A program made the position numbers and the translations under genes. 64,000 bases of DNA from a virus: positions 32,001 through 96,000 of the IMG/VR virus record IMGVR_UViG_3300030103_005357. One strand, given 5' to 3'. The notes under the pieces were generated by a model. The model was not told where the DNA came from, did no database searches, and saw only the letters and a list, made by a program, of their open reading frames with translations. Every line of letters starts with the position of its first letter. The first letter of the stretch is position 1. Shown here piece after piece: positions 1 through 50,098 of this stretch.

Positions 1-1949
1 AATCGGAAGTTTTTTCTCTTGAATCTAAGCCTTCAGAAGAGTTTTTAGACTTACTCAAGACATCTATGGGGAATGAGCCTTCTGGATTCTTATCTGAGTA
101 CTGCGTGAATCTTAATGATCAAGCTAAGCAAGAAAATCAAGTCCCTATAACCTCAAGAGATGAGGAGATAGATAGTTTGATTGAGATTTTGTCAAAAAAG
201 AATAAAAGTAATGCTGTATTACTGGGAGATTCGGGAGTTGGTAAAACAGCAATTGCTGAAGGGCTAGCTCAAAAAATAGTTAGGGATGAAGTTCCAGCCC
301 ATATCAGCTTGTGTACCGTATACAGCGTTGATATGGCATCTATGGTAGCTGGCACTCAATACAGAGGTCAGTTTGAGGAGAGATTCAAAGGCTTACTGAA
401 AGATGTCGAATCTCACCCTGAAGTAATCTTATTTATTGATGAAATTCATACCTTGATGGGCGCTGGTAACTCCAGCGAGAACGGTATAGACGCTTCAAAT
501 ATGCTCAAACCTGCTCTTGCCAGAGGGGACGTTAAATGCATAGGGGCTACAACCTTCAAAGAGTACGAAAAGTCTTTTGGGAAAGACCCCGCTCTTAAAA
601 GAAGGTTCGATAAGGTCGAGGTAAAAGAGCCAACAAAAGACCAAACGCATCTTATGATTAATAATAGTATTTCATACTATGAAAATTTTCATAGAGTTAA
701 ATACTCAAGAAAAAACATTCAAGATATATTAGATCTTAGCGAAATCTATTTATCGAATAAGAAGTTTCCTGAGAAAGCTTTTGATATTATCGACCAAGTT
801 GGAGCTAAAGCAAAAATCGATCAGGACTACCCCACTGAAGGCTTGGTTAATATTAGAGAAAGGTTTTCTACAAAGGGCAAAGATTCAGACACTGAGGAAG
901 AATCAGGAAGATTAATTAAAGAATACATTAAAGATTTAGTCTCTTATATAGATAAAGAAGACAAGAAAAGAAAAGTTTCAAGGAATCATATTCTTGAGGT
1001 TTTCGAAAAAAAGACGGGCATACCTAAAAAAATAATTGGAGAAAGTAACAAATCTTTTTCTAATTTTAAAAAGAAGATGCGGTCAGAAATATTTGGGCAA
1101 GAGGAAGCTTTAGATAGAATTTACAACATCCTCTCTTCTGTAAAGGTGGGACTAAACGATCCAAATAAACCTTTGGCTAACTTCCTATTTGTCGGCCCAA
1201 CTAGCGTTGGCAAGACATTTACAGCCAAGAATATTTCCAAACACTTTTTTGGTAACAAGAATTCATTCCTTCAAATCAATATGAGTGAATACCAAGATAA
1301 GACTGGCATCTCTAAATTGCTTGGAGCAAATGCTGGCTATGTTGGCCATGAAGATGGGGGAATCCTAAGTGAATTTGTTATAGATAATCCAAACTCTGTT
1401 ATTTTGTTTGATGAGATTGAGAAGTGTGATCCCAAAATTCTAGATCTACTCCTGCATCTACTCGACGAAGGTTACATCTCAGACAGCTTCAATAGACGTA
1501 TTGACTTCTCAAAATGCATTATTGTGATGACAACAAACATTGGCCACAAAGAAGCCACAAAAAACACAATGGGGTTTATGTCTGAAAATAATGAGCAGGA
1601 TTCTTATAAAGAAAGTTTGAGTAAATATCTACGACCAGAGCTAATAGCTAGAATACAAAATACCTTAATCTTCAATACGCTAAATGATGAGATTATGGCG
1701 AATATTGTGGGTGTAGAAATAAAAAAGATTAAAAATCGTTTATCTGACAAAGGCATTAATCTTTCTGTTCCCAAGGCAATCCAGAAGTTTCTAGTTGAGG
1801 AAATTAAAGCTAAAAAACTAAATGCTAGGAACATAAAAGCTCTAGTTGTGAAGCTAATTCAGTTTCCATTAGCCTCATTTATGATGGATGAAGAAAAAAA
1901 TAAGAAATTATCACTAAAAATTGTTGACAAAACCATCAAAGTTTACTAA
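1..1949 (+). CDS. ClpA/ClpB/ClpC-family double AAA+ ATPase, 5'-truncated by the window edge
   Basis: Two Walker A motifs (GDSGVGKT, GPTSVGKT), Walker B (LFIDEIH, LFDEIEK), pore loops GTQYRG and GYVG, MGF loop; frame is open from position 3. Confidence 0.92.
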   Translation, partial: SEVFSLESKPSEEFLDLLKTSMGNEPSGFLSEYCVNLNDQAKQENQVPITSRDEEIDSLIEILSKKNKSNAVLLGDSGVGKTAIAEGLAQKIVRDEVPAHISLCTVYSVDMASMVAGTQYRGQFEERFKGLLKDVESHPEVILFIDEIHTLMGAGNSSENGIDASNMLKPALARGDVKCIGATTFKEYEKSFGKDPALKRRFDKVEVKEPTKDQTHLMINNSISYYENFHRVKYSRKNIQDILDLSEIYLSNKKFPEKAFDIIDQVGAKAKIDQDYPTEGLVNIRERFSTKGKDSDTEEESGRLIKEYIKDLVSYIDKEDKKRKVSRNHILEVFEKKTGIPKKIIGESNKSFSNFKKKMRSEIFGQEEALDRIYNILSSVKVGLNDPNKPLANFLFVGPTSVGKTFTAKNISKHFFGNKNSFLQINMSEYQDKTGISKLLGANAGYVGHEDGGILSEFVIDNPNSVILFDEIEKCDPKILDLLLHLLDEGYISDSFNRRIDFSKCIIVMTTNIGHKEATKNTMGFMSENNEQDSYKESLSKYLRPELIARIQNTLIFNTLNDEIMANIVGVEIKKIKNRLSDKGINLSVPKAIQKFLVEEIKAKKLNARNIKALVVKLIQFPLASFMMDEEKNKKLSLKIVDKTIKVY

Positions 1950-25397: not shown

Positions 25398-25420
25398 CCA
25401 TCCATTATACTCACGGAGTT

Positions 25421-25918: not shown

Positions 25919-26021
25919 AAAAAATAATATCTGGAGCCACATTTTTTTCTTTAGTTACTGGATACGCTATTGGAATTTGGGTTTCAATTTTGCTGATTTG
26001 TATAAAAGAATACTTTAATTT

Positions 26022-26792: not shown

Positions 26793-26801
26793 TTTAAAAA
26801 C

Positions 26802-27419: not shown

Positions 27420-27422
27420 ATT

Positions 27423-27656
27423 ATGCAAATTAAAAAAATTGAACTTCGCTCTCTTCAGCAAGTTCGCACTTACGAGTTGGAGGACGGAGATATCATTGAT
27501 AACTTTGGTTCTATAGAAAGATTCCAGAAGATCCTTGATGATTCCGAACAACCTACAGAGGAGGAAAATGAAATGTTATCTAACATTCTGAGCGATTGTC
27601 CAATAGAGGAAGACAATATTATGGGTGATATTGAAGAGTCGTTTTTTGAATATTAA
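27423..27656 (+). CDS. acidic hypothetical protein
   Basis: 77-aa ORF. Confidence 0.5.
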   Translation: MQIKKIELRSLQQVRTYELEDGDIIDNFGSIERFQKILDDSEQPTEEENEMLSNILSDCPIEEDNIMGDIEESFFEY

Positions 27657-27732
27657 AGATTAAAAATGGATACTGAAGCGCTCGCTTTATTAATCGCACT
27701 TATTGCAATGTTAGTATTGCTCATTCAATGTT

Positions 27733-28458
27733 TTGATGGCTAAAAATTCGTATATGAATGATCTTATCAATCTTTTCCGTCAGGAAACTCAGCGGCCCAT
27801 TCTATTTTATAGAATACCAAAAAATGCCAGCACAAGCATTTATAATCATATTGGTCATTTTAATATCGTTAAGCAGTATTACAAAAAGGTATTTGATAAC
27901 GCTGATCAAGAAGTTTATTACAATTGGTTCTGCCCTTCTCACAGTACGCCTGAAGAGTTGTGTGAAACAATTGAGGAGAAAATGGGAAATTGCATAAGAT
28001 TTTGTGTCATTAGAAACCCTTGGGATAGAATGGTTTCCTCTTTTAACCAAAATAGAAAGATTCAAAGTTGGAAATTAACTGGTCACAAACCTAATATGAG
28101 CTTCAAAGAGTTCTGTTCGTTGATCCATGAAAACAAAAATAATAAGAAGTTTCTAGGTTCTAGACCCCAGATCGAATGGGCTTGTGGTAAATACCCTCCT
28201 CATGAAATATTAAGGTTTGAAAACCTAAAATCTGATTTCGCTGCAATGGTTGAGAAATACAAATTAAAAGGATTCTCTAAAGAGTTGCCTCATCAGAATA
28301 AAACCGATCACCCTCATTTTTCTGAATGTTACGACTCAGAATCAAAAGAAATGATTGAGGATGTATTTTTGCAAGATATTAAAAAGTTTAATTATTCTTT
28401 CCCAGAAGATTCTGATTTTTCAAATCCCAAGGGATCAGAAGGTTTTTTAAGAATATAA
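27733..28458 (+). CDS. sulfotransferase family 2 protein
   Basis: IPKNASTS (5'-PSB loop) and RNPWDRMVS (3'-PB). Confidence 0.85.
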   Translation: MMAKNSYMNDLINLFRQETQRPILFYRIPKNASTSIYNHIGHFNIVKQYYKKVFDNADQEVYYNWFCPSHSTPEELCETIEEKMGNCIRFCVIRNPWDRMVSSFNQNRKIQSWKLTGHKPNMSFKEFCSLIHENKNNKKFLGSRPQIEWACGKYPPHEILRFENLKSDFAAMVEKYKLKGFSKELPHQNKTDHPHFSECYDSESKEMIEDVFLQDIKKFNYSFPEDSDFSNPKGSEGFLRI

Positions 28459-28654
28459 CATAAGATTAATGAAGATAAAGAAAAAGAAATTAATTAAATA
28501 CCTCAAAGAATGGGCCAAGGCCAGCGCGAGAGACGCTGAAGTTTACAGCGAGGACGGCGATTACGCACGGGCTTACGAGGCCATTATTATTGCGGATTTC
28601 ATGAAGGACGATCTCATTAAGGGTATTGATTATGATTTCAATAATGAGTAATAC

Positions 28655-28903
28655 ATGATGAATAAAAAATTAATAAAAATGGATGGCTACGATGACTGTA
28701 TTGTCGGGGTAGTAGAGAGGGCTGGTCAAGAACCGATTCTCTGTTACGACAAAGAAGAAGTGCTTCACAAGCTAGAATCCCAAGGCATGAATAGAGACGA
28801 GGCAGAAGAGTTTTTTTATTTTAATCAAATAGGAACGTGGATGGGTGACTCTACACCATGTTTTTTATCAAAAGAGCTTGACAAAGACGAGCTTCTATCT
28901 TAG
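28655..28903 (+). CDS. conserved phage hypothetical protein
   Basis: DGYDDCIVG...YD..EA.EFF.FN..G.WMG..TP pattern. Confidence 0.6.
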   Translation: MMNKKLIKMDGYDDCIVGVVERAGQEPILCYDKEEVLHKLESQGMNRDEAEEFFYFNQIGTWMGDSTPCFLSKELDKDELLS

Positions 28904-29348
28904 AGTACTGAAATCAAAGAAAGAAAAAATGAAAACACAATTATTCTTAGCTGTATCACTAACGCTTTGTGCGCTTGCCACTTGGACTTCCTTTAAGACT
29001 CCTGAAGTTAAAACGGTAATTCAAGAGGAGATTATTTATCCAGAAAAAGTTGAGGCTTGCGTGTCTCTCACCAAGTTTCAACTGGAGAAAATGCTTAGTC
29101 ATTTTAATGAAGACGATCACCCTTCCGAAATGAAGCGTTTTAAAAGTTTGGTTAAGAAAGATGTGAATGGTTGGAGAATCTCTTCAACTCATTTAGCTAA
29201 AGGCGCAGATGATTATCCACTTCCAGACGGTGATTTCCTAGTTGTTGATGCCTCGTTTATTGATTATCATGGGAATTTCAAAGATTGTATCACCTACGCT
29301 CACAGCTATCAAGATAATCACGAATATATTGTGGTATCAGTCAAGTAA
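28845..29348 (+). CDS. hypothetical exported protein; true start probably MKTQLFL
   Basis: Signal-peptide-like segment. Confidence 0.5.
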   Translation: MTLHHVFYQKSLTKTSFYLRVLKSKKEKMKTQLFLAVSLTLCALATWTSFKTPEVKTVIQEEIIYPEKVEACVSLTKFQLEKMLSHFNEDDHPSEMKRFKSLVKKDVNGWRISSTHLAKGADDYPLPDGDFLVVDASFIDYHGNFKDCITYAHSYQDNHEYIVVSVK

Positions 29349-29353
29349 ATTTA

Positions 29354-29436
29354 GGCTCTGTGGCGGAATTGGTAGACGCTGCGGATTTAAAATCCGTTGA
29401 TCCTAGATCGTGAGGGTTCGATCCCCTCCAGAGCTA
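29354..29436 (+). tRNA. tRNA-Leu(TAA)
   Basis: GGCTCTG/CAGAGCT acceptor, anticodon loop TTTAAAA, long variable arm, TTCGATC T loop; CCA not encoded. Confidence 0.9.
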
Positions 29437-29451
29437 TTATCACTTTATTGT

Positions 29452-29673
29452 ATGGAGAATCTTAAAAGAGAGTCTGGTAAGTGGGTCGTAACCTTTGGCA
29501 AATATAAAAATTGTTGTTTAAAAAAAGTTCCCACCCATTACCTTGAATGGGTTCTTAAAAATTTTAAAGATTTATCTATTAAGGAATTGAATGTTATTAG
29601 AGGGACCGTTTCAGGTAGGAAAGGACAAATTAAAAAGCACAAAAAAAATAAGACCCGTTCGTCTAATGGTTAG
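29452..29673 (+). CDS. small protein with FGKYK...VP..YLEW motif (ExoX C-terminal/DUF3820-like)
   Basis: Motif recognition; ATG at 29452. Confidence 0.5.
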   Translation: MENLKRESGKWVVTFGKYKNCCLKKVPTHYLEWVLKNFKDLSIKELNVIRGTVSGRKGQIKKHKKNKTRSSNG

Positions 29674-29726
29674 GACTCCAGATTTTCATTCTGGCAATAG
29701 GGGTTCGATCCCCCTACGGGTTGCCA
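29652..29726 (+). tRNA. tRNA-Glu(TTC)
   Basis: GACCCGT/ACGGGTT acceptor, CCAGA-TTTTCAT-TCTGG anticodon arm, encoded CCA. Confidence 0.92.
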
Positions 29727-29748
29727 ACTTTAAAAAAACTAATAAAAA

Positions 29749-30111
29749 ATGAGACTAAGTAAAGCATTATTTACACTTGTAGCCTTAGTAATTTTAATAA
29801 CACCAGCAATAGGGGAGACAAAATATACTTCAATAATGACTGGAGTATCAGTTGGCAAAGGTAGAGTTCATATCTGGGAGGTATTGACAAAAACATTTAA
29901 GGCATCTCAAATCCGTATCAAAAAAGGAGAAGAGCGTAAGCCTGTTAGATGGGCTACAATTCCGAGCTATGTGACCGTAACGTTTACATCTAAAGATAAG
30001 ACGATTACAAGAACGAAAGTAGATAAAGCACTCAACATACTGAATTTTTCAGGTACTCCATACCTTGTATGGACGGTAAAGAAAGAAGAGCAAAAAATTA
30101 ATAAAAAATAA
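29749..30111 (+). CDS. hypothetical exported protein
   Basis: N-terminal signal peptide. Confidence 0.55.
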   Translation: MRLSKALFTLVALVILITPAIGETKYTSIMTGVSVGKGRVHIWEVLTKTFKASQIRIKKGEERKPVRWATIPSYVTVTFTSKDKTITRTKVDKALNILNFSGTPYLVWTVKKEEQKINKK

Positions 30112-30112
30112 T

Positions 30113-30316
30113 ATGAATGCACATTTAAAAGCAATTAAGAAAAAGCACGAAGCTCTTGGAGATATCGCCAGAGCAGATCTAGAAACCTATTTGAATAATC
30201 AAGTAGCTATCGGAGAACATCCTGATCTGGGCGTAGAAATCGAAAAGAAAGTAGAAACTATCGCTCATCATAATGAAGTAGTTGAAACAATTAATGATCT
30301 TATTTCAGGTCATTAA
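30113..30316 (+). CDS. hypothetical phage protein
   Basis: YL...VAIGEHPD motif. Confidence 0.6.
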   Translation: MNAHLKAIKKKHEALGDIARADLETYLNNQVAIGEHPDLGVEIEKKVETIAHHNEVVETINDLISGH

Positions 30317-30325
30317 TATATTTAA

Positions 30326-30401
30326 GCGCTTGTAGCTCAGTGGTTAGAGCAGGGGTCTCATAAACCCTTGGCCGTGAGTTCAAATCTCACCGAGCGCACC
30401 A
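30326..30401 (+). tRNA. tRNA with CAT anticodon (Ile2-like or elongator Met)
   Basis: GCGCTTG/CGAGCGC acceptor, GGGGT-CTCATAA-ACCCT, encoded CCA; paired 1:72, so not an initiator. Confidence 0.9.
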
Positions 30402-30442
30402 TTTTTAATTAGATAAATTTATATACGAAGGTATAATCAATT

Positions 30443-31552
30443 ATGAAACCTGTTTCTCTTCACTGCTCTAAACAAATTGATGACCTTCTAGATGAATCTA
30501 TGACTATGGAGGCTAACGGCAAGGTGTTCGCCTCTCAAGATCATGCAGGCCCCGCTTACGTTAGGAACCCTGACTTATGGTGTAGAGATCTAGATATTAC
30601 ATGTGTGTCTCCTTGGAATAGTAGTGGTGATCATAAGAAAGCGGGAACACTAGTGACCCCAAGGCATATCATAGGTGCAGCACACTACGAGTATTCTGTG
30701 GGGACAGTGGTTAGGTTTGTAGAGAAAAACGGTTCAGTGCATGAACGAACTGTAACAGGAAAAGCTCGCCATCCCGAATGTAGACGTTACTTTCCAGACT
30801 TAACAATATATACTTTAGACAGCGACCTCCCCTCTACGATAAAACCTTGTTCTGTAATGCCTAGTAATTACAGTGAATATTTAGATAACTTTAGCAGGAT
30901 ACCTAGCCTTGGTCTTGATCAAGAAGAGAAAGCTCTCATAATAGATTGGCGAGCTGGAGGTAGGATGCAGACACCCGCAGATCCGAAAAGGCTTATTTTT
31001 CATGAGAATAAAATCAGTGGTGATAGCGGGAATCCTGCATTTTTAATATTCAAAGGTGAGCCTGTTCTTATAACTGTTTGGACATTTGGTGGTGCAGGGG
31101 CTGGGACTGCTGTAGCAGATCATATTTCAGATATTAATGGTATGATTGCTACCGCTGACACACGGGCAGGTGTATCGACAAACTATACAGTTACTGAAGC
31201 GGATTTTTCAACATACGATAACAAAGTCTTCGATGCTAAAAAACTTTTTTCTCAATTCGTTGCTGCACTTCGTAAGTTAAGACCTCGGTGGTTTAAGAAA
31301 AGTCCCGAAACCAGCGCCGAAACCAGTGCCGAAACCAGCGCCGAAACCAGTGCCGAAACGAGTGCTGAATATAGTAGCTCTGAGCCACCTTGGGATACGA
31401 GTGCTGAATGCACTTCTAGTGCGGAATGCACTAGCGCGGAATGCACTCATCCCGAATGCACTAGCGCAGACCAAGCATCTCATTCTTTCCATGTGCAAAA
31501 CTGGAATGAGACGAGTGCAGAATACACTAGCGCCGAGACCAGTGCCGAATAA
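30443..31552 (+). CDS. trypsin-like serine protease with low-complexity repeat tail
   Basis: GTLVTPRHIIGAAH (His), PDL (Asp), GDSGNP (Ser). Confidence 0.75.
   Translation: MKPVSLHCSKQIDDLLDESMTMEANGKVFASQDHAGPAYVRNPDLWCRDLDITCVSPWNSSGDHKKAGTLVTPRHIIGAAHYEYSVGTVVRFVEKNGSVHERTVTGKARHPECRRYFPDLTIYTLDSDLPSTIKPCSVMPSNYSEYLDNFSRIPSLGLDQEEKALIIDWRAGGRMQTPADPKRLIFHENKISGDSGNPAFLIFKGEPVLITVWTFGGAGAGTAVADHISDINGMIATADTRAGVSTNYTVTEADFSTYDNKVFDAKKLFSQFVAALRKLRPRWFKKSPETSAETSAETSAETSAETSAEYSSSEPPWDTSAECTSSAECTSAECTHPECTSADQASHSFHVQNWNETSAEYTSAETSAE
31307..31549 (+). repeat. 12-bp tandem repeat GAAACCAGYGCC (ETSA) x5 plus degenerate copies
   Basis: Five copies at 31307-31366, decayed copies to 31549. Confidence 0.9.
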
Positions 31553-31609
31553 AGGTAATATAAAATTATTTTAAATAATAAAAATAGTAGTAATTAATCT
31601 TTTAACTAC

Positions 31610-32224
31610 ATGGAAAGTAAAATCAACACTAATACAATTAATACATTTGCAATAATTCTATCTTGTGAAAAATATAAAGACAAAAAACTCTCCCAAGATA
31701 CCACTAGGCTTGGGGATCATATGTACTTCATAGGGAATCCTCAATTATCTTCCCCTATGATTGAAGGTGATGTTGTCTATTTACCTTGCCCAGACAATTA
31801 TGAGAGCTTACCTATTAAAACTTTAATGGCTGTTAAGTGGGCTTTTGAAAATAAAGATTTTGACTTATTGATAAAAACAGATGATGATGTTTACTTCTTA
31901 GATGGTTTTGATGAAATCGTTAATGAGGCATCTGTCCATGATTATTCTGGTTTTCTGAGAAGTGGTGGTTATATGTCTAATTGGCACTTTGGTAAATGCG
32001 AGAATCAAGAATTAAATAATTTACCTCACGCCGTTCCAGAAGTAGTATATTGTGATGGCCCATTATACTTCTTGTCTAGAAAATCTGCTGCCCATTTAGT
32101 AAATCATGGGATTAGAAGAAATTTATATATGTATGAAGATGCAGAGGTTGGAGAGTTATTAAGAAGGTCTGGAATTATTGCAAGGCAAATCCAAATTAAG
32201 TACGGGGTTTATTGGCCGAAATAA
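31610..32224 (+). CDS. GT31 galactosyltransferase-like protein
   Basis: DNYESLPIKT, KTDDDVY, G..YFLS and EDAEVG motifs. Confidence 0.8.
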   Translation: MESKINTNTINTFAIILSCEKYKDKKLSQDTTRLGDHMYFIGNPQLSSPMIEGDVVYLPCPDNYESLPIKTLMAVKWAFENKDFDLLIKTDDDVYFLDGFDEIVNEASVHDYSGFLRSGGYMSNWHFGKCENQELNNLPHAVPEVVYCDGPLYFLSRKSAAHLVNHGIRRNLYMYEDAEVGELLRRSGIIARQIQIKYGVYWPK

Positions 32225-32894
32225 TCTTGAATCACATAACGTGATACCTCAAAAATTACATCAAGTTTGGTTAGGTCATAATCACATACCTGAAGAATTT
32301 GTAAAGTTTACAAGTAACTGGAGGAAGCTGCATCCTGACTGGCAATATAAATTATGGACAGAGGAGACCATATCAAACAAACCACAAATTAAAAACTTGG
32401 TTGATAAGTGCGAGGCGTTTTCATCTAAATCAAATGTAGTTAGATTATATGCGGTTTACTTGGAGGGTGGAGTTTATGCAGACATGGACATTGATTGGTT
32501 CCGCAACTTTGATGAACTATTAAATGTTAATTCCTTTGCATCGCCCGAAACAAATAAGACTAATAAAGAATTAGGACTTAAAGATTTTCACATAAATTAC
32601 TCTAAACTATTTTGCAATGCAATTTTCGGTGCGGTTACTAAAAGTGAGTGGGTAAATTGGCAAATAAAACAATTATCTGAGATGGTATCTGAGAAGCCGC
32701 CTTGGGGTCCAACCTTAATGACCAATGCTGTTGAGGCATTTAAAAATACGAATGATTTTCAAGAATACCCATCAACGTATTTTTATCCATATTTTTGGAA
32801 TGAAGAATATACAAAGTCTGAAGATTTTAAAAATAAAAATAAAGAGTCATATGTAGTCCATCATTGGGAAAGTTCGTGGGATCAAAAAAAATAA
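32178..32894 (+). CDS. GT32 (OCH1-like) DXD glycosyltransferase
   Basis: IPQKLHQVW, HPDWQYKLW, GGVYADMD, WGP and HHWESSW. Confidence 0.85.
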   Translation: MQGKSKLSTGFIGRNNLESHNVIPQKLHQVWLGHNHIPEEFVKFTSNWRKLHPDWQYKLWTEETISNKPQIKNLVDKCEAFSSKSNVVRLYAVYLEGGVYADMDIDWFRNFDELLNVNSFASPETNKTNKELGLKDFHINYSKLFCNAIFGAVTKSEWVNWQIKQLSEMVSEKPPWGPTLMTNAVEAFKNTNDFQEYPSTYFYPYFWNEEYTKSEDFKNKNKESYVVHHWESSWDQKK

Positions 32895-33460
32895 CAATCA
32901 TGATTTTTAAAGCGCGAAATAAAATAGTACAATATTGTCCAACCCCAAAATGCGGTTGTACATCAACTAAAGTGATGATCCGCAAAGGGATAGAAGGTAT
33001 TATTGATTATCAAAATAATATTCACGCTAGATTTAGCACAAAGACATTTAAAGCGGTAGATGCGGATATTAAATTTTGTATAGTCAGAGATCCTGTGAGT
33101 AGGTTTTTGTCATGCTATACAAACAGAATTTGCCGACATCACGATATTGAATTTGTAGAACTCGATGAGTTTATTAACAATTTTCATGATAAATACTATA
33201 GATTAGATAAAAATATGCATCATCATTTTCGACCACAGGTTGATTTTATAGGCCATTGCCCTAGCTACTATAATAAAGTCTTTTATTTGCATGAAATGTC
33301 TTTAGTGTCGCAATTCTTAAGTGAAATCATGGGGAAGTCAATAAAATTAGAAAAACTAAATCCCGTTCAGGCAGAAAAACCAATCCCAACTGAAAGCCAA
33401 ATTGATTTCATAAAGTCGTTTTACGAAGATGATTATAAATTTTTGGACAAGATAAAGTAA
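32864..33460 (+). CDS. sulfotransferase family 2 protein
   Basis: PKCGCTS, VRDPVSRFLS and HFRPQ. Confidence 0.8.
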   Translation: MGKFVGSKKITIMIFKARNKIVQYCPTPKCGCTSTKVMIRKGIEGIIDYQNNIHARFSTKTFKAVDADIKFCIVRDPVSRFLSCYTNRICRHHDIEFVELDEFINNFHDKYYRLDKNMHHHFRPQVDFIGHCPSYYNKVFYLHEMSLVSQFLSEIMGKSIKLEKLNPVQAEKPIPTESQIDFIKSFYEDDYKFLDKIK

Positions 33461-33519
33461 AAATAACTAAAAGAGTCTTGGAATAATCTATAAAACGCAG
33501 TAATATAAATATAGATACG

Positions 33520-34152
33520 ATGAAATTTAAAGGAAAAACCGATATCGTTAAAGAAGTCCAAGGTAAACTTGGCCTTAAAGCTGACGGGATTGATGGCCCT
33601 GCTACATGGAAGATGATTTGGGAGAATCTAGTTCATGATGATAAAGGTGAACCAGAAAAGCCAGAGCCTCCAGCTCAAGAACTTAAAGATGATTACCCTG
33701 AAGTTTACAAAGCGTCACCAAACCAGTCTGGACCCATCAAACCTAAGTATGTGATTCTGCATCATAGCAGTGGAAGTCATGATGGGACTCGTTCATGGAT
33801 TTTAAATTCTGCGTCTAAGGTTAGTTATCACTATCTTATTGCGCCTGATGGATCTCGCACACAATTTGTTTATGATAAAAAAAGAGCTTGGCATGCTGGG
33901 AGATCTTCTTGGAAAGGTGTAAGCGGTCTAAATGGTCATAGTATCGGCATTTCTTTCTATGGGGATACCAACAAACGCACACCAAGTGCTGCTGAAATTG
34001 ATTCCGCTGCCAAGAAATGCAAATACCTTATGGATAAATTTGGTTTTGGTATTGACAATATTCTGACGCATGAGATGATTGCCCCCAACAGAAAGAATGA
34101 TACTTCTGCTGCTACCTACCAAATGGTTATTGATCGCATAAAGGATCTTTAA
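33520..34152 (+). CDS. N-acetylmuramoyl-L-alanine amidase endolysin with peptidoglycan-binding domain
   Basis: ADGIDGPAT; ILHHS, SYHY, AWHAG, SIGI, THE..AP.RK.D. Confidence 0.9.
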   Translation: MKFKGKTDIVKEVQGKLGLKADGIDGPATWKMIWENLVHDDKGEPEKPEPPAQELKDDYPEVYKASPNQSGPIKPKYVILHHSSGSHDGTRSWILNSASKVSYHYLIAPDGSRTQFVYDKKRAWHAGRSSWKGVSGLNGHSIGISFYGDTNKRTPSAAEIDSAAKKCKYLMDKFGFGIDNILTHEMIAPNRKNDTSAATYQMVIDRIKDL

Positions 34153-34227
34153 CATGAACATATACTCAATCTTCGAAGCGATAGCGCATATCATTCGTGT
34201 AATTACTGAACTCCTTAACTTTTTCAA

Positions 34228-34719
34228 ATGAGTAATTTTAAAAATTCAGAAAGCTGGAAAAGAGGGCAGAAGGTCGAAGCTTTATTTGGTTCCTGTTTAG
34301 AAAAGAGGGGCATCAAGTATCGCCCTGCGTCCAGAACAGAACAAATCAAACAGCATATTGATTTCCACACTGACGTAGGCACTGTTGATGTGAAAGCGAT
34401 GAAGAATGTTAATCGCAAGGATTATAATCCTCAACAAGATCTTGTTTGGTTAGAGTTTAAGAATGTTGGAGGTAATACAGGATGGCTGTGTTCTAATGTA
34501 GATTATATAGCTTTTGAGCGTTTACATGATTTTGTGATTGTTAATCGTCAAGCTCTCCTAGAGTTAGCTAAAAATTTATGTGATTTAGTAAATATTACTA
34601 GACAGGGCGGTATGAAAGCTTTATACAGAGGGTATCAAAGGCAGGGGCGTAAAGACATTATCTCAATGATCAAAATGAGCGACATCTTAACCTTGCCTCA
34701 TAAGTCGATTCCAAAGTAA
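34228..34719 (+). CDS. PD-(D/E)XK nuclease-like protein
   Basis: G..VE..F...HIDF...VDVK. Confidence 0.6.
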   Translation: MSNFKNSESWKRGQKVEALFGSCLEKRGIKYRPASRTEQIKQHIDFHTDVGTVDVKAMKNVNRKDYNPQQDLVWLEFKNVGGNTGWLCSNVDYIAFERLHDFVIVNRQALLELAKNLCDLVNITRQGGMKALYRGYQRQGRKDIISMIKMSDILTLPHKSIPK

Positions 34720-34722
34720 AAC

Positions 34723-35397
34723 ATGGCCCTCAAGGACGATTACCTCATAAAGAAGATAACATACCAAGATGCGATGGAAATCGTCGTGAATAAGCATTAT
34801 ATGGGTAGAAAAGGCCCATGTAGTCATGCTTTTGGTTTATTTGAGAGGGGTACATCACATGAGCAACTAGATCTTTTTGATAATAACAAAGATAAGCTTG
34901 TAGGAGTCATTACATATGGGGTTAGTGCTAGCTCTACTCTTTTAAGAGGTGTTTGCGGTGAAGAAGAAGCTAAAAATGTTTATGAACTTACCCGTTTGTG
35001 GATTGAAGATAGCACACCAAAGAATGCAGAAAGCTTTTTTATTGGTAATACTATCAAGACATTAGACAGAGAGGTCATTGTTTCTTTCTCTGAGATAGCT
35101 CAAGGGCATGTTGGAACAGTTTATCAGGCATCAAATTTCTTTTATTGTGGTCTTAGTGCTAAGTTTAGAGATCCCAAAGTAAAAGGGCTAGAGAATAAAC
35201 ATCATACAAGCTATGCTCACGGGATGAATATGGCTCAAGTCAGAGAAAAATATGGTGCGGAGAACGTCTATTATGTTGACAGACCTCGCAAACATCGTTA
35301 CGTTTTCTTTAACGCTAAGAAGAAAAGACGTAAAGAACTACTTGGTAAACTAAATTACAAAATAGAGCCTTACCCAAAAAGCCCAGATCGAGCGTGA
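34723..35397 (+). CDS. Mom-like GNAT DNA base-modification enzyme
   Basis: HY, GVITYG, ELTRLW, KNAES, GHVGTVYQASNF.Y.G and KHRY. Confidence 0.75.
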   Translation: MALKDDYLIKKITYQDAMEIVVNKHYMGRKGPCSHAFGLFERGTSHEQLDLFDNNKDKLVGVITYGVSASSTLLRGVCGEEEAKNVYELTRLWIEDSTPKNAESFFIGNTIKTLDREVIVSFSEIAQGHVGTVYQASNFFYCGLSAKFRDPKVKGLENKHHTSYAHGMNMAQVREKYGAENVYYVDRPRKHRYVFFNAKKKRRKELLGKLNYKIEPYPKSPDRA

Positions 35398-35508
35398 TTT
35401 TGCCAAATATGCAATGTGATTTTTAATCGAAACAAAATTTTAAAACTTTTGCTAAAAAAAAATACTAATCCTTCTTATTATTAAAAAATTAAAACATTTT
35501 CTTAAATT

Positions 35509-47279: not shown

Positions 47280-47444
47280 TTATTTATTATCAAAGTGATT
47301 TCTCAACCATCCTTCGACGGCTTCCTTACCAAACCGATTATGTAAACGGCGCAGAGTAAAGTGGCTTCTACTTATTACACCATCAACCTCAAGCTCCGCG
47401 ATGTATTCTTGCATGGCTTTTTCGAATTTTTCTTTTTCTGTCAT
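47280..47444 (-). CDS. 54-aa hypothetical protein (MTEKEKFEKAMQEY...), not in the ORF track
   Basis: Hand translation; sits between paralog A and the lysozyme. Confidence 0.55.
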   Translation of the reverse strand: MTEKEKFEKAMQEYIAELEVDGVISRSHFTLRRLHNRFGKEAVEGWLRNHFDNK

Positions 47445-47446
47445 GA

Positions 47447-47590
47447 TTATTTTAATTCCTCCAATTCAACTTTTAACTCTTGGCACTCTTTCTGGAATTG
47501 ACCTGAGACTTCGACGACCCTATCGACCATCTTGTCCCAATTTTCTTCTGCTTTTGCCATCGCTGCCAATGCTTCTTCTGTCGCTGTCAT
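47447..47590 (-). CDS. 47-aa helical protein, paralog A (MTATEEALAAMAKAEENWDKMVDR...)
   Basis: TTGACC-16-TATACT-6-ATG; near-identical N-terminus to 50108-50275. Confidence 0.75.
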   Translation of the reverse strand: MTATEEALAAMAKAEENWDKMVDRVVEVSGQFQKECQELKVELEELK

Positions 47591-47662
47591 GTGGGAAGTA
47601 TATCAGAAAATGTGATGAGGTCAACCCCTAAACGCACTTTTTTAATTTATTTTTAGGGAAAT

Positions 47663-47801
47663 TGGTCGCTCTAAAAGGACTTGCACCTTTATCTTTCTCG
47701 CCCGAACCATTGGGGTTGCGGTGACTTTCTCGCCGAGATTATCATCGAGCGTGTTATTGAAGAGGTCGTGGAGATTGTCTTGCTTGTTAGACTATAGAGC
47801 T
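47663..47801 (-). ncRNA. tRNA-like RNA with a 71-nt structured insert in place of the anticodon loop
   Basis: GCTCTA/TAGAGC acceptor plus ACCA, GTCT/AGAC D stem, AAAGG-TGCAAGT-CCTTT T arm; own TTGTCC-17-TATAAT promoter. Confidence 0.7.
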
Positions 47802-47857
47802 TTCTTACGGGGGAGATTATAAGTGATTTGGGGGATGGGGACAAGCCCTTTTTTAAT

Positions 47858-48070
47858 TTATTTTTCTATGCGTGAGAAGTAGAGAGTTCTGAAAACTTCC
47901 TTGTTACCGCTCTCGCTGTCGTGGCTTTTGTCAACTACCTTGCAAACTGCGAACTCCTTAGTTGAACGCTCAACCCCGCGAAGTTGATACATGCGGAGAT
48001 TTCCATTGTTGGAGGTGGTATAAACAAACTGCTTATTGATCAGGCGGGTGATGTTGTCTTGGTTGGTCAT
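47858..48070 (-). CDS. small beta-rich protein with FRTL motif
   Basis: TAAAAT-6-ATG; similar to 48702-49055. Confidence 0.65.
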   Translation of the reverse strand: MTNQDNITRLINKQFVYTTSNNGNLRMYQLRGVERSTKEFAVCKVVDKSHDSESGNKEVFRTLYFSRIEK

Positions 48071-48187
48071 GTGGATATTTTACTCTAAAAACGCAGAGAT
48101 TAAAAGCTTTTTCTGCATCTTTTTTTATTTATTTTTTTAAGTAAAAGGCTTGACACTATTCTTCTTTACTATAAAGAAACATCCTTC

Positions 48188-48264
48188 GTAAGTCCTTGAT
48201 ACTCAACGAGTTACGGGCCAGCGACCCGCCGCGCCCCGTAACTCCTTGATACTCAGTGAGTTAC
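48188..48264. repeat. 77-bp element, copy 8 (core F)
   Basis: GTAAGTCCTTGATACTCAACGAGTTAC-GGGCCAGCGACCCGCCGCGCCCC-GTAACTCCTTGATACTCAGTGAGTTAC. Confidence 0.95.
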
Positions 48265-48323
48265 GACGGTTTTCTTATTAGCTGTTTTCTCGCGGCTGTC
48301 AACACAAAAGATTAATTTAATTC

Positions 48324-48347
48324 AAAAAAAAGCTCCCTTTCGGGAGC
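48324..48347 (-). terminator. intrinsic terminator
   Basis: GCTCCC-GAAA-GGGAGC followed by a T run on the - strand. Confidence 0.75.
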
Positions 48348-48361
48348 CTTGCACGGGGTGG

Positions 48362-48595
48362 TTAGTCTTGCCAGTCTCGCGCTCGATCCTCCGCGCCTTG
48401 CGCCATGTATGTCCGAGCGTCCTCCAATCCGTCCTTGTAGGCGAACGCCCATATCTCATATGATTCCTCTCCATTCGGAAACTCATCGGGTATGATATAG
48501 CCAAGGTAGGAGGTGGGGCAGATGTTACTCTCCTGATTGTTGAGTGCTGCCTTGTATGCGAATTCTGCGAGCTGGTCTTGTGTTACTGTTGCCAT
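48362..48595 (-). CDS. hypothetical protein
   Basis: TTGTGT-17-TATAAT-6-ATG at 48595. Confidence 0.6.
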   Translation of the reverse strand: MATVTQDQLAEFAYKAALNNQESNICPTSYLGYIIPDEFPNGEESYEIWAFAYKDGLEDARTYMAQGAEDRARDWQD

Positions 48596-48701
48596 GCCGA
48601 GATTATACTCTCGAAAAGAATTAAACACAAGATCTTTTTGCATAAAAACACAAAAAAACCCGCCAGCCTCCGAAGAGACTGACGGGCGACACACAACACC
48701 A

Positions 48702-49055
48702 TTAGAAAACTGATTTGGCTAGCTGGTAAGCGGTCGCCACGCGACCCTTCACCTTGGTAATTCCCGAAACATGCAGAGTGCGGAACTTAGTCTTGCCTCC
48801 ATCGTCGAGGTCTTGCACCTCTCCTTGGATGTAACGGCGACCCGAACCTTTGGCGTGATCGGTGTGATCAACTGACTTGATAACGAAACTACGAACGCCG
48901 TCATTTTTGACAGAGGATTCGTCGTGGTTGTAGTAAGTCACCACGCGATTGGTGAGCTTTTTCTTAAGGTCTTCGTCGCTGAGTCCATACAGGGCGTGGT
49001 CGAACTTGTAGTTGATGCCGACATTGGTGGTGGTAGTGGTAGTGGTGTTTTTCAT
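48702..49055 (-). CDS. beta-rich protein with FRTL motif
   Basis: TTGCGC-17-TATAAT-9-ATG at 49055. Confidence 0.65.
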   Translation of the reverse strand: MKNTTTTTTTNVGINYKFDHALYGLSDEDLKKKLTNRVVTYYNHDESSVKNDGVRSFVIKSVDHTDHAKGSGRRYIQGEVQDLDDGGKTKFRTLHVSGITKVKGRVATAYQLAKSVF

Positions 49056-49064
49056 AACGAGGTA

Positions 49065-49093
49065 ATTATACTCTAGATTTTGGTTGGGCGCAA
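49065..49093 (-). promoter_or_regulatory. representative sigma70-type promoter of the cassette region
   Basis: TTGCGC-N17-TATAAT; similar promoters precede many genes in 39.8-50.7 kb. Confidence 0.75.
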
Positions 49094-49122
49094 GAACTAT
49101 TTTGCTATTAAAGTGATTTTTT

Positions 49123-49368
49123 TTAGAGGTAGGAGGCGACAGAAACAAGGGCTTCGACCTCTGCTCTTTTGGCTGCGCGTTTAGCTGCGCGGATATCGAG
49201 GAGAGCTTTCGCTGCTTGCTCGCGGGTGATAGCTTGGAACTTGTAGCGACTCCAGTTCTGATTTTTAACGGAGACATGCAAGTAGGTCATGCCAGTACGG
49301 TAGACTGAGAGAATGAGATGCTTGGTCTTATAGGTGCGGAACTTTGGTGATGTAGTGGTGTCGGACAT
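49123..49368 (-). CDS. hypothetical protein
   Basis: TATAAT-6-ATG at 49368. Confidence 0.6.
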   Translation of the reverse strand: MSDTTTSPKFRTYKTKHLILSVYRTGMTYLHVSVKNQNWSRYKFQAITREQAAKALLDIRAAKRAAKRAEVEALVSVASYL

Positions 49369-49485
49369 GGGGATATTATAAACGGAAATCTCACAAAAGA
49401 AAAGCTTTTTCTGCATAAAAAAGAAACTTTTTTTTCGATTAAAAGTGTTGACACGATGGCTTGTTTTGGTATGGGAAAAACCTTC

Positions 49486-49562
49486 GTAAGTCGTTGATAC
49501 TCAGTGAGTTACGGGCGGCGGCGGGGCGCTTCGCCGTAACTCGTTGATACTCAGTGAGTTAC
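49486..49562. repeat. 77-bp element, copy 9 (core R)
   Basis: GTAAGTCGTTGATACTCAGTGAGTTAC-GGGCGGCGGCGGGGCGCTTCGCC-GTAACTCGTTGATACTCAGTGAGTTAC. Confidence 0.95.
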
Positions 49563-49610
49563 AGCGATTCTTTTCATAACATAAAAACTCAACGTGTCAA
49601 GTATTTTTTT

Positions 49611-49676
49611 TGGTGGATGGCGGGGGGATCGAACCCCCATCCGAGACTCGCATCCCGTCGAAACCATTGGCCACCC
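49611..49676 (-). ncRNA. minimal tmRNA-like RNA (tRNA-like domain only)
   Basis: GGGTGGC-CAATGGTTTCGAC-GGGAT-GCGA-GTCTC-GGAT-GGGGG-TTCGATC-CCCCC-GCCATCC-A-CCA; G3:U70 pair, no D stem. Confidence 0.8.
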
Positions 49677-49683
49677 AAACTTT

Positions 49684-49908
49684 TTACTTGCCGTAAATCG
49701 AGCGGAGTTCCCAACTCGCTTCGTTCACTATTTCCGCAGTCACGCTTTGCGGATTCTTGCACGCTTCGGGAAGACCTTTGCGAATGATTCGCTTCAACTT
49801 ACGCGCACGCATCCACTCCCCAATGTGATGAGGGAAGAGAATGGGGTAGGTAAGAATCAAGATAGCTTTCCCCATTGGGGATTGATATTTAAAATTGTGG
49901 AGGTTCAT
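49684..49908 (-). CDS. hypothetical protein
   Basis: ATG at 49908, downstream of 49916-50098. Confidence 0.5.
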   Translation of the reverse strand: MNLHNFKYQSPMGKAILILTYPILFPHHIGEWMRARKLKRIIRKGLPEACKNPQSVTAEIVNEASWELRSIYGK

Positions 49909-49915
49909 AATGTTT

Positions 49916-50098
49916 TTATTGAATGAGATCGAGAGACTCAAGAGAAACTTCTTTCGCGTGTCCGTCATTGAATGAGATCCAAGCGCTGTTGTCTTGTTGG
50001 AATGTCTCATGAACCAAGACGGTTTGGCCTTGGTAATTAGCGAAGAACTCTTCGCAAGAAACCTCGGCTAATTGACTGATTGTGTTTTGGTCTGTCAT
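49916..50098 (-). CDS. hypothetical protein
   Basis: TTGACC-17-TAGAAT-6-ATG. Confidence 0.65.
   Translation of the reverse strand: MTDQNTISQLAEVSCEEFFANYQGQTVLVHETFQQDNSAWISFNDGHAKEVSLESLDLIQ

What the first reader, a model, noticed from the sequence alone, without database searches (positions are those of the whole stretch)
47663..47844. Self-promoted 139-nt tRNA-shaped RNA with a 71-nt structured anticodon insert
Seen: acceptor stem (6 bp plus A1:G72 mismatch) with ACCA, a D arm, a TCTC/GAGA anticodon stem and a T arm with TGCAAGT loop. The anticodon loop is replaced by 71 nt containing hairpins CTCG...CGAG and CCG(C)AACC-CCAAT-GGTTCGG. It has a dedicated TTGTCC-17-TATAAT promoter and no ORF. 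The insert is far too short for a group I intron, and no U33-type anticodon loop is evident. Inference: a tRNA scaffold displaying an RNA module, such as a decoy for anticodon nucleases, a synthetase or ribosome ligand, or a partner of the mini-tmRNA 1.8 kb away.
Basis: partly seen in the sequence, partly recalled or inferred. Interest (0 to 1): 0.75.

Follow-up and report, generated by a model that had tools for sequence, protein, structure and literature searches.

The report
Anticodon-locked tRNA look-alike of marine phages
A widespread group of uncultured marine phages keeps a separately promoted gene for a tRNA-shaped RNA whose former anticodon is locked inside an inserted, conserved fold, so it most likely works as a non-decoding tRNA mimic; a new kind of short tRNA intron is the main alternative.

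Summary
On the minus strand (47801..47663) lies a 139-nt tRNA-shaped RNA, 14 nt downstream of a sigma-70-type -10 box. About 35 marine viral and metagenome contigs carry it, as 17 sequence variants of 113-139 nt.

RNAalifold and pair counting support the cloverleaf and two helices in the insert. Three pairs show compensatory changes and none shows a half-changed state.

The last 7 nt of the "71-nt insert" are a canonical anticodon loop (UU-CGG-GC). The gene therefore reads as a tRNA-Pro(CGG)-type body with a 38-64-nt insert after nt 31. The anticodon pairs with a CCG triplet in the insert.

I favour a retained, non-decoding tRNA mimic (about 0.5) for these reasons:
- CGG/CCG switches to CAG/CUG on the same body, and one contig carries both versions.
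- C38 behaves as a dispensable bulge.
- Positions 72/73 vary, and A1 never pairs.
- CCG and CUG are the phage's rarest Pro and Leu codons.
- A second tRNA-like RNA and a TLD-only mini-tmRNA lie nearby.

A protein-spliced intron (about 0.27) is not excluded. Removal of the insert was neither seen nor ruled out.

This scan has noted anticodon-masking inserts in other phages, but not this family.

The parts
47851..47868 (-). A/T-rich element upstream of the -35 box. A near-identical copy at 47640-47658 precedes the next promoter.
   Evidence: Read directly. The same module stands upstream of the promoter in L003 and L035. I read it as a repeated promoter (UP-like) module, not a target-site duplication (inference).
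47816..47844 (-). Sigma-70-type promoter TTGTCC-17-TATAAT
   Evidence: 10 of 12 matches. Variants with unrelated upstream DNA keep a TATAAT/TATACT box exactly 14 nt before A1 (L001, L121, L003 copy 2).
47802..47815 (-). Predicted 5' leader between the -10 box and A1. About 7-8 nt of it would be transcribed and removed by RNase P (inference).
   Evidence: The motif ...CCC(C/A)G(T/C)AA(G/A/C)A(A/T) is semi-conserved in all variants.
47663..47801 (-). The whole tRNA-shaped RNA, 139 nt, from A1 to the CCA end
   Evidence: Model R1 scores it at 126.8 bits.
47771..47801 (-). 5' tRNA part (nt 1-31): A1, acceptor 5' strand, U8-A9, D arm (47792..47777), and the 5' strand of the anticodon stem
   Evidence: ARAGORN cloverleaf. 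D-stem pair 12:23 changes CG to UA in 6 variants.
47707..47770 (-). Insert of 64 nt (38-41 nt in other variants) between tRNA positions 31 and 32. The boundary is ambiguous by 1 nt.
47723..47767 (-). Side hairpin P-a. The closing helix GAC/GUC (47767..47765 with 47725..47723) carries a hypervariable tip.
   Evidence: Pair 36:78 changes AU to GC in 4 variants with different tips. At least five unrelated tip versions exist.
47728..47752 (-). Extra 25-nt segment of the P-a tip, present only in the window, L003/L130 and L120 versions
   Evidence: Gap columns 50-74 of alignment A4. The same 25 nt are missing from the RNA-library contig (table 4).
47702..47721 (-). Helix P-b, which locks the anticodon. 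Insert CCG-(C)-AACC pairs with GG + U32 U33 C34 G35 G36. The loop is CCAAU.
   Evidence: 7 pairs, all paired in 16 of 16 variants. Pair 82:99 changes CG to UA in 4 variants (anticodon CGG to CAG with insert CCG to CUG).
47700..47706 (-). Canonical anticodon-loop sequence UU-CGG-GC (positions 32-38). In the unspliced fold G37 pairs with the first insert base (C32') and C38 is a bulge.
   Evidence: ARAGORN. RNAalifold pair 32:101 is CG in 16 of 16. C38 is C, U or absent among variants.
47663..47699 (-). 3' tRNA part: anticodon-stem 3' strand, 4-nt variable loop, T arm (47690..47674), acceptor 3' strand, G72, A73, CCA
49611..49676 (-). Companion gene: a 66-nt mini-tmRNA that has the tRNA-like domain only
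   Evidence: Rfam RF00023, 47.6 bits. It co-occurs with the tRNA-like gene on the same strand in most related contigs.

Best explanation
I read this as a tRNA-derived, non-decoding structured RNA of an uncultured marine siphovirus-like phage (genome roughly 130 kb).

Proposed steps (inferred unless marked):
1. Host RNA polymerase transcribes it early from its own sigma-70-type promoter.
2. RNase P trims the 5' end, and the 3' end is trimmed to the encoded ACCA.
3. It then keeps its insert.

Fold (supported by covariation):
- The top half is a normal tRNA elbow: acceptor stem, D arm and T arm. The D-loop/T-loop pairing is of a type seen in canonical phage tRNAs.
- The anticodon end is rebuilt. 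The former anticodon loop is zipped to the 3' part of the insert (helix P-b).
- P-b stacks on the anticodon stem to give a rod of about 13 bp capped by a CCAAU loop.
- A side hairpin (P-a) with a hypervariable tip branches from the middle of that rod.

Consequence (inferred): such an RNA cannot read codons, but it still shows the acceptor/T-arm face and the CCA end. Candidate partners are RNase P, the CCA-adding enzyme, possibly a synthetase or EF-Tu, and tRNA-targeting toxins.

Most likely role (inferred, low certainty): a mimic, that is a decoy, sponge or adaptor for a tRNA-handling or tRNA-targeting protein during early infection. It would act alongside the neighbouring mini-tmRNA and, in some relatives, a second tRNA-like RNA.

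Basis: the fold, its conservation and the promoter module are shown. Maturation, retention of the insert and the partner are inferred.
For: 1. It is a real, selected RNA.
- 17 variants occur in about 35 contigs, and the stretch was found in runs of 12 studies of marine or seawater metagenomes.
- Compensatory changes occur in the D stem, P-a and P-b, with no half-changed states.
- RNAalifold gives the same fold.

2. Selection appears to act on the unspliced fold.
- C32':G37 extends the anticodon stem in 16 of 16 variants.
- C38 is then a bulge that is C, U or deleted. Two variant groups in 5 contigs lack it. A spliced tRNA would then have a 6-nt loop.

3. Decoding identity is not conserved on one body.
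- The anticodon is CGG or CAG, with a compensating change in the insert.
- Contig L003 carries both versions 0.7 kb apart, each with its own promoter.
- Positions 72/73 read GA, CG or AG, and A1 is never paired.

4. CCG (7% of Pro codons) and CUG (6% of Leu codons) are the rarest codons of their families in the window's genes.

5. Every copy found has an insert. No exon-exon version exists in IMG/VR.

6. Neighbouring tRNA-like genes also cannot decode.
- A mini-tmRNA with the tRNA-like domain only lies nearby.
- A second tRNA-like gene has a 7-bp 'anticodon' stem closed by two covarying hairpins and no usable loop (L132, L139, L150).

7. The elbow type (T loop UGCAAGU with a D loop lacking GG) occurs in phage tRNAs that ARAGORN calls at default settings, so the top half is a working tRNA design.

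8. There is a precedent for stable tRNA-like phage RNAs of unknown role: T4 rnaC (139 nt) and rnaD (119 nt).
Against: - Conceptual removal of the insert gives a near-perfect 75-nt cloverleaf. It has U33 and G37, and in the window G72 and A73. From my own knowledge (not tested here), G72 and A73 are the acceptor-end identity bases of bacterial tRNA-Pro. Such a clean result is what an intron predicts.
- An insert segment pairing with the anticodon is a hallmark of eukaryotic and archaeal pre-tRNAs.
- Covariation in the insert would also be expected if its structure guides excision.
- Two paralogues with different anticodons in one genome look like isoacceptors.
- No partner protein is identified, and no transcript ends are known.
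- Total divergence is low, so three covarying pairs may reflect only three events.
Confidence: 0.5

Rival explanations
1. It is an intron-containing tRNA gene: tRNA-Pro(CGG), with a CAG paralogue. The 38-64-nt insert would be a short, non-self-splicing intervening sequence. A protein endonuclease would cut it out, recognising the anticodon-insert helix and the three-way junction, and an RNA ligase (RtcB or Rnl type, from host or phage) would seal the exons. The product would be a working tRNA. Masking might protect the anticodon or time its release.
For: - With introns allowed, ARAGORN reads every variant as a tRNA with a canonical 7-nt loop (U33, G37), at 90% of its default threshold. Only two other extra calls appear in the 64-kb window.
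- The anticodon and the insert triplet covary.
- CGG and CAG copies coexist in L003.
- Precedent: 'enigmatic' short introns in Lak megaphage tRNAs (PMC6784885).
- Earlier notes of this scan report anticodon-masking inserts in other phages.
Against: - No bacterial or phage route for such splicing is known.
- By inspection no bulge-helix-bulge motif can be drawn. Both junctions flank an intact anticodon stem, and the 3' junction lies inside helix P-b.
- No group I or small-ribozyme family matches.
- No RNA ligase or splicing endonuclease was found among about 30 window proteins. RtcB is absent from three partial relatives. This is weak, because about half of the genome is unseen.
- One body with CGG, CAG (or UCG) anticodons and variable positions 72/73 conflicts with synthetase identity rules.
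- Variants lacking C38 would give a 6-nt loop.
- No insert-free allele was found.
- The codons it would read are the phage's rarest.
Confidence: 0.27
2. It is a tRNA-like processing or stability element, comparable to plant mitochondrial t-elements. Its role would be to recruit RNase P or RNase Z so that neighbouring early mRNAs are cut apart or their ends protected. The RNA product itself would have no role.
For: - It sits between closely packed small early genes with no terminator after it.
- A contig from an RNA library runs through the upstream ORF, the RNA and the downstream DNA.
Against: - It has its own conserved promoter, and the next gene has its own promoter too, so no cutting is needed.
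- A processing signal needs only the acceptor and T arms. It would not need the conserved, covarying D arm, P-a and P-b.
Confidence: 0.08
3. It is a tmRNA-like tagging RNA: a tRNA-like domain plus a very short reading frame in the insert that would tag or release stalled peptides.
For: - The window and the L001 type share an apparent frame (CCA/CCG CGA CCU/CCG CUU CAA (CAA) UAA) in which the differences are synonymous.
- A mini-tmRNA lies nearby.
Against: - That frame is lost in the L013, L035, L125 and L146 types, where the segment is replaced by unrelated hairpins.
- There is no G3:U70 pair.
- The D arm has a normal stem, unlike a tmRNA.
- ARAGORN in tmRNA mode and the Rfam tmRNA model do not match.
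Confidence: 0.02
4. It is a decaying tRNA pseudogene damaged by an insertion, or a chance cloverleaf.
For: - Fold energy is not exceptional (z = -0.94).
- Default tRNA finders miss it.
Against: - It is conserved far above its flanks in about 35 contigs.
- Its promoter is kept at a fixed distance.
- Three compensatory pairs occur, two of them in the insert.
Confidence: 0.03

Closest known systems
'Enigmatic' short introns of Lak megaphage tRNA genes (Devoto et al. 2019, PMC6784885)
   Same: - A phage tRNA-type gene carries a short insert in the anticodon region that is far too small to self-splice.
- The insert sequence is nearly identical among related phages.
- The mechanism is unknown.
   Different: - The Lak cases were found with eukaryote-mode tRNAscan in otherwise assignable tRNAs, and insert-free alleles exist.
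- Here no insert-free allele was found.
- Here the insert starts at 31/32, the anticodon itself changes along with the insert, and the host phage is a marine phage of about 130 kb rather than a 540-kb gut megaphage.
- No sequence similarity was tested.
Phage T4 stable RNAs rnaC (species 1, 139 nt) and rnaD (species 2, 119 nt)
   Same: - Small phage RNAs with tRNA-like features (rnaC has a GGGTTCGAATCCC T-arm hairpin near its 3' end).
- Similar sizes.
- Function unknown.
   Different: - The T4 RNAs lie inside the tRNA cluster and are co-transcribed with tRNAs.
- They show no full cloverleaf with a D arm and no encoded ACCA end in the record.
- No sequence relationship is apparent.
Protein-spliced pre-tRNAs of archaea and eukaryotes (anticodon-intron helix, bulge-helix-bulge motif)
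   Same: The insert pairs with the anticodon, and its removal restores a canonical anticodon arm.
   Different: - The position is 31/32, not 37/38.
- By inspection no two 3-nt bulges separated by 4 bp can be drawn.
- The host is bacterial, judged from the tmRNA-type gene, sigma-70-type promoters and lysozyme/amidase lysis genes.
tmRNA tRNA-like domain, including the neighbouring 66-nt mini-tmRNA
   Same: A tRNA top half with a CCA end whose anticodon arm is replaced by another helix. Both lie in the same phage region.
   Different: - No G3:U70 pair.
- A normal D stem.
- No conserved tag frame.
- No Rfam or ARAGORN tmRNA match.
Group I introns in bacterial and phage tRNA anticodon loops
   Same: An intervening sequence in the anticodon region of a bacterial-type tRNA gene.
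   Different: - The insert is 38-64 nt. From my own knowledge, not checked here, known group I introns are about 200 nt or longer.
- No Rfam intron match was found at E up to 10.

Membership tests
Canonical tRNA (Rfam RF00005 / ARAGORN default) | Contiguous cloverleaf with a 7-nt anticodon loop, detected by standard models | tested here: not met
   There is no ARAGORN call at default settings. There is no RF00005 match at the gathering score or at E up to 10.
Canonical tRNA (Rfam RF00005 / ARAGORN default) | tRNA core: U8, A14, A21, G53:C61, T54, C56, A58, a 7-bp acceptor stem and an NCCA end | tested here: inconclusive
   - Most core bases are present.
- Position 55 is G and position 18 is A. 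This combination also occurs in canonical phage tRNAs.
- Pair 1:72 is mismatched in all variants.
Intron-containing tRNA (generic) | Removing the insert yields a canonical anticodon arm with a 7-nt loop in all members | tested here: inconclusive
   This holds for most variants. Two variant groups lack C38 and give a 6-nt loop, or a different anticodon if the junction shifts.
Intron-containing tRNA (generic) | A spliced product exists | tested here: inconclusive
   Only assembled contigs of four RNA libraries could be laid on the region. One spans the gene with its insert, and no joint was seen. Contigs cannot show a mature tRNA.
Enigmatic phage tRNA introns (Devoto 2019) | Alleles with and without the insert occur in related phages | tested here: not met
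   The exon-exon junction pattern finds nothing in IMG/VR. All copies found carry an insert.
Enigmatic phage tRNA introns (Devoto 2019) | A short insert in the anticodon region of a phage tRNA gene, highly conserved among relatives | tested here: met
   compared with the description in PMC6784885.
Group I intron | A catalytic core (P3-P9), which needs roughly 200 nt or more | tested here: not met
   The insert is 38-64 nt. There is no Rfam match in 47300-50000 at E up to 10.
Archaeal/eukaryal BHB intron | Two 3-nt bulges separated by a 4-bp helix at the two junctions | tested here: not met
   By inspection of the covariation-supported fold, the 5' junction abuts the intact anticodon stem and the 3' junction lies inside helix P-b.
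tmRNA | G3:U70, a stemless D loop, a tag reading frame, and a match to RF00023 or ARAGORN tmRNA mode | tested here: not met
   - Pair 3:70 is C:G.
- The D stem has 4 bp.
- The candidate frame is not conserved.
- No tmRNA call was obtained.
Small self-cleaving ribozymes (hammerhead, twister, pistol, hatchet, hairpin) | A match to the family's covariance model | tested here: not met
   No such family appears among matches at E up to 10. The junction linkers (2-3, 1 and 0-2 nt) do not fit a hammerhead core (inspection).

The most novel reading that the evidence does not exclude
These marine phages may carry a small toolkit of non-decoding tRNA mimics. Each has an intact tRNA top half and a rebuilt anticodon end:
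- the anticodon-locked CGG and CAG RNAs;
- a second two-hairpin tRNA-like RNA;
- a mini-tmRNA with the tRNA-like domain only.

Together they would manipulate or shield the host's tRNA and ribosome-rescue machinery, or neutralise tRNA-targeting immunity. The locked codon-anticodon-like helix and the hypervariable side hairpin would be the specificity-bearing parts. An equally new alternative is that the insert is removed by a cut-and-rejoin tRNA splicing route not yet described for bacteria or their viruses.
Probability: 0.3. Interest if true: 0.8.

Novelty: new variant of a known kind. Interest (0 to 1): 0.62.

Why it matters
Short inserts in phage tRNA genes have been reported but never explained. 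This family is unusually informative for three reasons:
- It is common in marine metagenomes.
- It has enough natural variants to show that the insert's fold, including the helix that buries the anticodon, is under selection.
- Its anticodon, discriminator base and loop length drift in ways a decoding tRNA should not tolerate.

If it is a mimic, it points to a class of phage RNAs that use the tRNA top half to engage host proteins. If it is spliced, bacteria or their viruses have a tRNA splicing route nobody has described. Either way the gene is a small, self-contained unit with its own promoter, so it is easy to test.

Tried and rejected
- Mini-ORF or tag-peptide idea. Suggested by synonymous-looking differences between two variants. 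Rejected when more variants replaced that segment.
- Plus-strand reading. Rejected because the U:G pair in L123 and the promoter fit the minus strand only.
- Target-site duplication. The 17-nt A/T repeats flanking the gene recur before other promoters, so they are promoter modules.
- Bulge-helix-bulge, hammerhead, RNase III-type rod, and RNase P minihelix (P-a followed by ACC). None fits. The ACC becomes ACU in the CAG variants, and P-b has only 7 bp.
- Cultured-phage relatives. None by DNA for the locus or the 3' part. The proteins are only distantly related to those of cultured phages.
- Host or prophage copies. Two scans of 185,579 species genomes found nothing. No whole genome is held for the window.
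- RtcB. Absent from three partial related contigs. The two long ones (L001, L004) are not held.
- RNA evidence. Four RNA-library runs exist only as assembled contigs. One L132-like CAG variant contig spans the gene with its insert and both flanks, and the others stop upstream. No joint was seen. This shows neither transcription nor absence of splicing.
- ARAGORN at 80% of its threshold gives 121 calls in the window, so that setting is uninformative. At 90% it gives only 4 calls beyond the 3 true tRNAs.

Full report
**What is there.**

The feature lies on the minus strand. From A1 (47801) to the terminal CCA (47663) the sequence folds as a tRNA:
- acceptor stem GCTCTA/TAGAGC, with A1 opposite G72, then A73-CCA;
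- U8-A9;
- D arm GTCT-AACAAGCA-AGAC;
- anticodon stem (A)TCTC/GAGA(A);
- a 4-nt variable loop;
- T arm AAAGG-TGCAAGT-CCTTT.

Between the two strands of the anticodon stem lie 71 nt. The single-sequence MFE fold reproduces the cloverleaf, but its energy is unremarkable (z = -0.94). ARAGORN at default settings and Rfam miss it. A TTGTCC-17-TATAAT promoter ends 14 nt before A1.

The window belongs to an uncultured phage:
- It encodes a terminase, PhoH, lambda-like tail proteins L and J, a lysozyme, an amidase, three ordinary tRNAs and a mini-tmRNA with the tRNA-like domain only.
- It has no close cultured relative.
- The stretch occurs in runs of 12 studies, labelled marine or seawater metagenomes.
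- CheckV completeness of a relative implies a genome of roughly 130 kb.

**Is it more than chance?**

Yes. Exact-word scans of IMG/VR and JGI/ENA metagenomes found the gene in about 35 contigs, as 17 distinct versions of 113-139 nt. The RNA is almost invariant, while the DNA on both sides is often unrelated.

Variants with different upstream DNA still place a TATAAT or TATACT box exactly 14 nt before A1. I therefore read the gene as its own transcription unit.

On a 16-sequence alignment whose columns equal the window RNA positions (A4):
- 98.5% of pair cells are standard pairs.
- Three pairs changed on both sides with no half-changed sequence: D stem 12:23 (CG to UA, 6 variants), insert helix 36:78 (AU to GC, 4 variants) and 82:99 (CG to UA, 4 variants).
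- No shuffle (0 of 500) and no slid control reaches the observed covariation score.
- RNAalifold, run without my structure, returns the same fold plus one more pair, 32:101.

A U:G pair in one variant fits the minus strand only.

**Anatomy of the insert.**

With introns allowed and the threshold at 90%, ARAGORN calls every variant a tRNA. In the whole 64-kb window this setting adds only this gene, a spurious call over the mini-tmRNA and two likely false positives.

The 7 nt before the 3' strand of the anticodon stem read UU-CGG-GC: U33, anticodon CGG, G37. The boundary can shift by one base.

The insert has three parts:
- **A 2-3-nt linker.**
- **A side hairpin, P-a.** It is closed by GAC/GUC, or GGC/GCC in four variants. 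Its tip is hypervariable. At least five unrelated versions exist, and the window's 25 extra nt (47752..47728) are one of them.
- **The invariant segment A-CCG-C-AACC-CCAAU-GG.** It folds back on U32 U33 C34 G35 G36 to form helix P-b.

The first insert base pairs with G37, and C38 is bulged. On the 3' strand the anticodon stem and P-b are therefore continuous. Together they form a rod of about 13 bp capped by CCAAU, with P-a branching from its middle.

**Retained module or intron?**

*For an intron:*
- Conceptual removal of the insert gives a clean 75-nt cloverleaf.
- The window version has G72 and A73. From my own knowledge, these are the acceptor-end identity bases of bacterial tRNA-Pro.
- The anticodon pairs with the insert, as in eukaryotic pre-tRNAs.
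- Short unexplained introns have been reported in Lak megaphage tRNAs (PMC6784885).
- Earlier notes of this scan describe anticodon-masking inserts in other phages.

*Against an intron, and for a retained module:*
1. The anticodon is CGG in most variants and CAG in five, always with the matching CCG or CUG in the insert and on the same tRNA body. Contig L003 carries both versions 0.7 kb apart, each with its own promoter. One body serving Pro and Leu anticodons conflicts with synthetase identity rules.
2. C38 is C, U or deleted. Two variant groups in five contigs lack it. In the unspliced fold this base is a bulge, so its loss is harmless. In a spliced tRNA the loop would shrink to 6 nt, or the anticodon would become UCG.
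3. Positions 72/73 read GA, CG or AG, A1 is never paired, and one type lacks the encoded CCA.
4. CCG and CUG are the rarest Pro and Leu codons in the window's genes, at 7% and 6%.
5. No insert-free allele exists in IMG/VR.
6. Related contigs hold a second, unrelated tRNA-like gene (L132:227..100, L139:3949..3821, L150 about 1737..1612). Its 7-bp "anticodon" stem is closed by two hairpins that covary among the three copies, and no usable anticodon loop can be drawn.
7. The mini-tmRNA, another tRNA top half without a decoding end, lies on the same strand 0.25-2.6 kb away in most contigs long enough to tell. Its order relative to the tRNA-like gene varies.
8. No bulge-helix-bulge motif, group I core or small-ribozyme family fits (and inspection).
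9. No RNA ligase or splicing endonuclease appeared among about 30 window proteins, and RtcB is absent from three partial relatives. This point is weak, because about half of the genome is unseen.

RNA data do not decide the question. Only assembled contigs of four RNA libraries could be laid on the region. One spans the gene with its insert, and no joint was seen.

**Most likely working.**

I put about 0.5 on a non-decoding tRNA mimic. It would be transcribed early from its own promoter, cut by RNase P, end in ACCA and keep its insert.

Its elbow is a working design. The unusual T loop UGCAAGU with a D loop lacking GG is also found in canonical phage tRNAs. It can therefore present the acceptor/T-arm face to tRNA-binding proteins, while the anticodon is buried.

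The partner is unknown. A decoy for anticodon-loop nucleases seems unlikely because the loop is paired. Decoy, sponge or adaptor roles aimed at proteins that read the top half or the CCA end are open.

The other readings get these weights:

| Reading | Confidence |
|---|---|
| Protein-spliced intron | about 0.27 |
| Mere processing signal | about 0.08 |
| Pseudogene or chance cloverleaf | about 0.03 |
| tmRNA-like tagging RNA | about 0.02 |

**Comparison and novelty.**

The nearest described things are:
- the enigmatic Lak phage tRNA introns, which share the kind of object but have insert-free alleles and assignable tRNAs;
- the T4 stable RNAs rnaC (139 nt) and rnaD (119 nt), which are tRNA-like and of unknown function.

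It is not a member of the tRNA, tmRNA, group I or BHB-intron families by their defining tests. I rate it a new variant of a barely described kind. Its value lies in the natural variation, which shows what is under selection, and in how easily it could be tested.

Noticed in passing
L132:100-227 (-), L139:3821-3949 (-), L150:~1612-1737 (-): A second tRNA-like gene family in related contigs. It has a normal acceptor and T arm, and a 7-bp 'anticodon' stem closed by two hairpins. The hairpins covary among the three copies (for example CGCTTC/GAAGCG, CGCTCC/GGAGCG, CGCACC/GGTGCG). It has no canonical anticodon loop and no encoded CCA. It is not present in the window.
   Followed up: partly
L003:219-357 (-) and L003:1054-1167 (-): One 8-kb contig carries two copies of the tRNA-like gene. 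One is a CGG copy with the long insert, and the other is a CAG copy with the short insert. Each has its own promoter, and they lie about 0.7 kb apart.
   Followed up: yes
window 49611-49676 (-): A 66-nt mini-tmRNA with the tRNA-like domain only (Rfam 47.6 bits, just above the gathering score of 47). It co-occurs with the tRNA-like gene in most related contigs, sometimes upstream and sometimes downstream of it.
   Followed up: partly
window 47640-47658 and 47851-47868: A near-identical 17-nt A/T-rich element (AAAAATAAATTAAAAAA on the minus strand) lies just upstream of two successive promoters. It looks like a reused promoter (UP-type) module of the early-gene cassettes.
   Followed up: partly
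L008, L011, L016, L019, L037, L038, L083, L113 and others: Many unrelated IMG/VR phages have canonical tRNAs whose T loop is UGCAAGU (G at position 55 instead of U). Their D loops lack the usual GG. This looks like a coupled D-loop/T-loop variant of phage tRNAs.
   Followed up: partly
window 47447-47590 (-) and relatives (L003, L035, L120 downstream of the RNA): A small ORF (47 aa in the window, motif ...EALxAMAKAE..W.K...) follows the tRNA-like gene in several variants, though not in all of them.
   Followed up: no
window 25400-35400: Around the three ordinary tRNA genes the phage carries several sulfotransferase and glycosyltransferase genes, an amidase and a Mom-family protein. These are possible surface-sugar and DNA-modification functions.
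   Followed up: no
window 4912-5009 (-) and 21349-21426 (+): ARAGORN at 90% of its threshold gives two further tRNA calls (Val-GAC, Ser-AGA). Both overlap long ORFs (3844-5733 and 19311-21866), so they are probably false positives.
   Followed up: no
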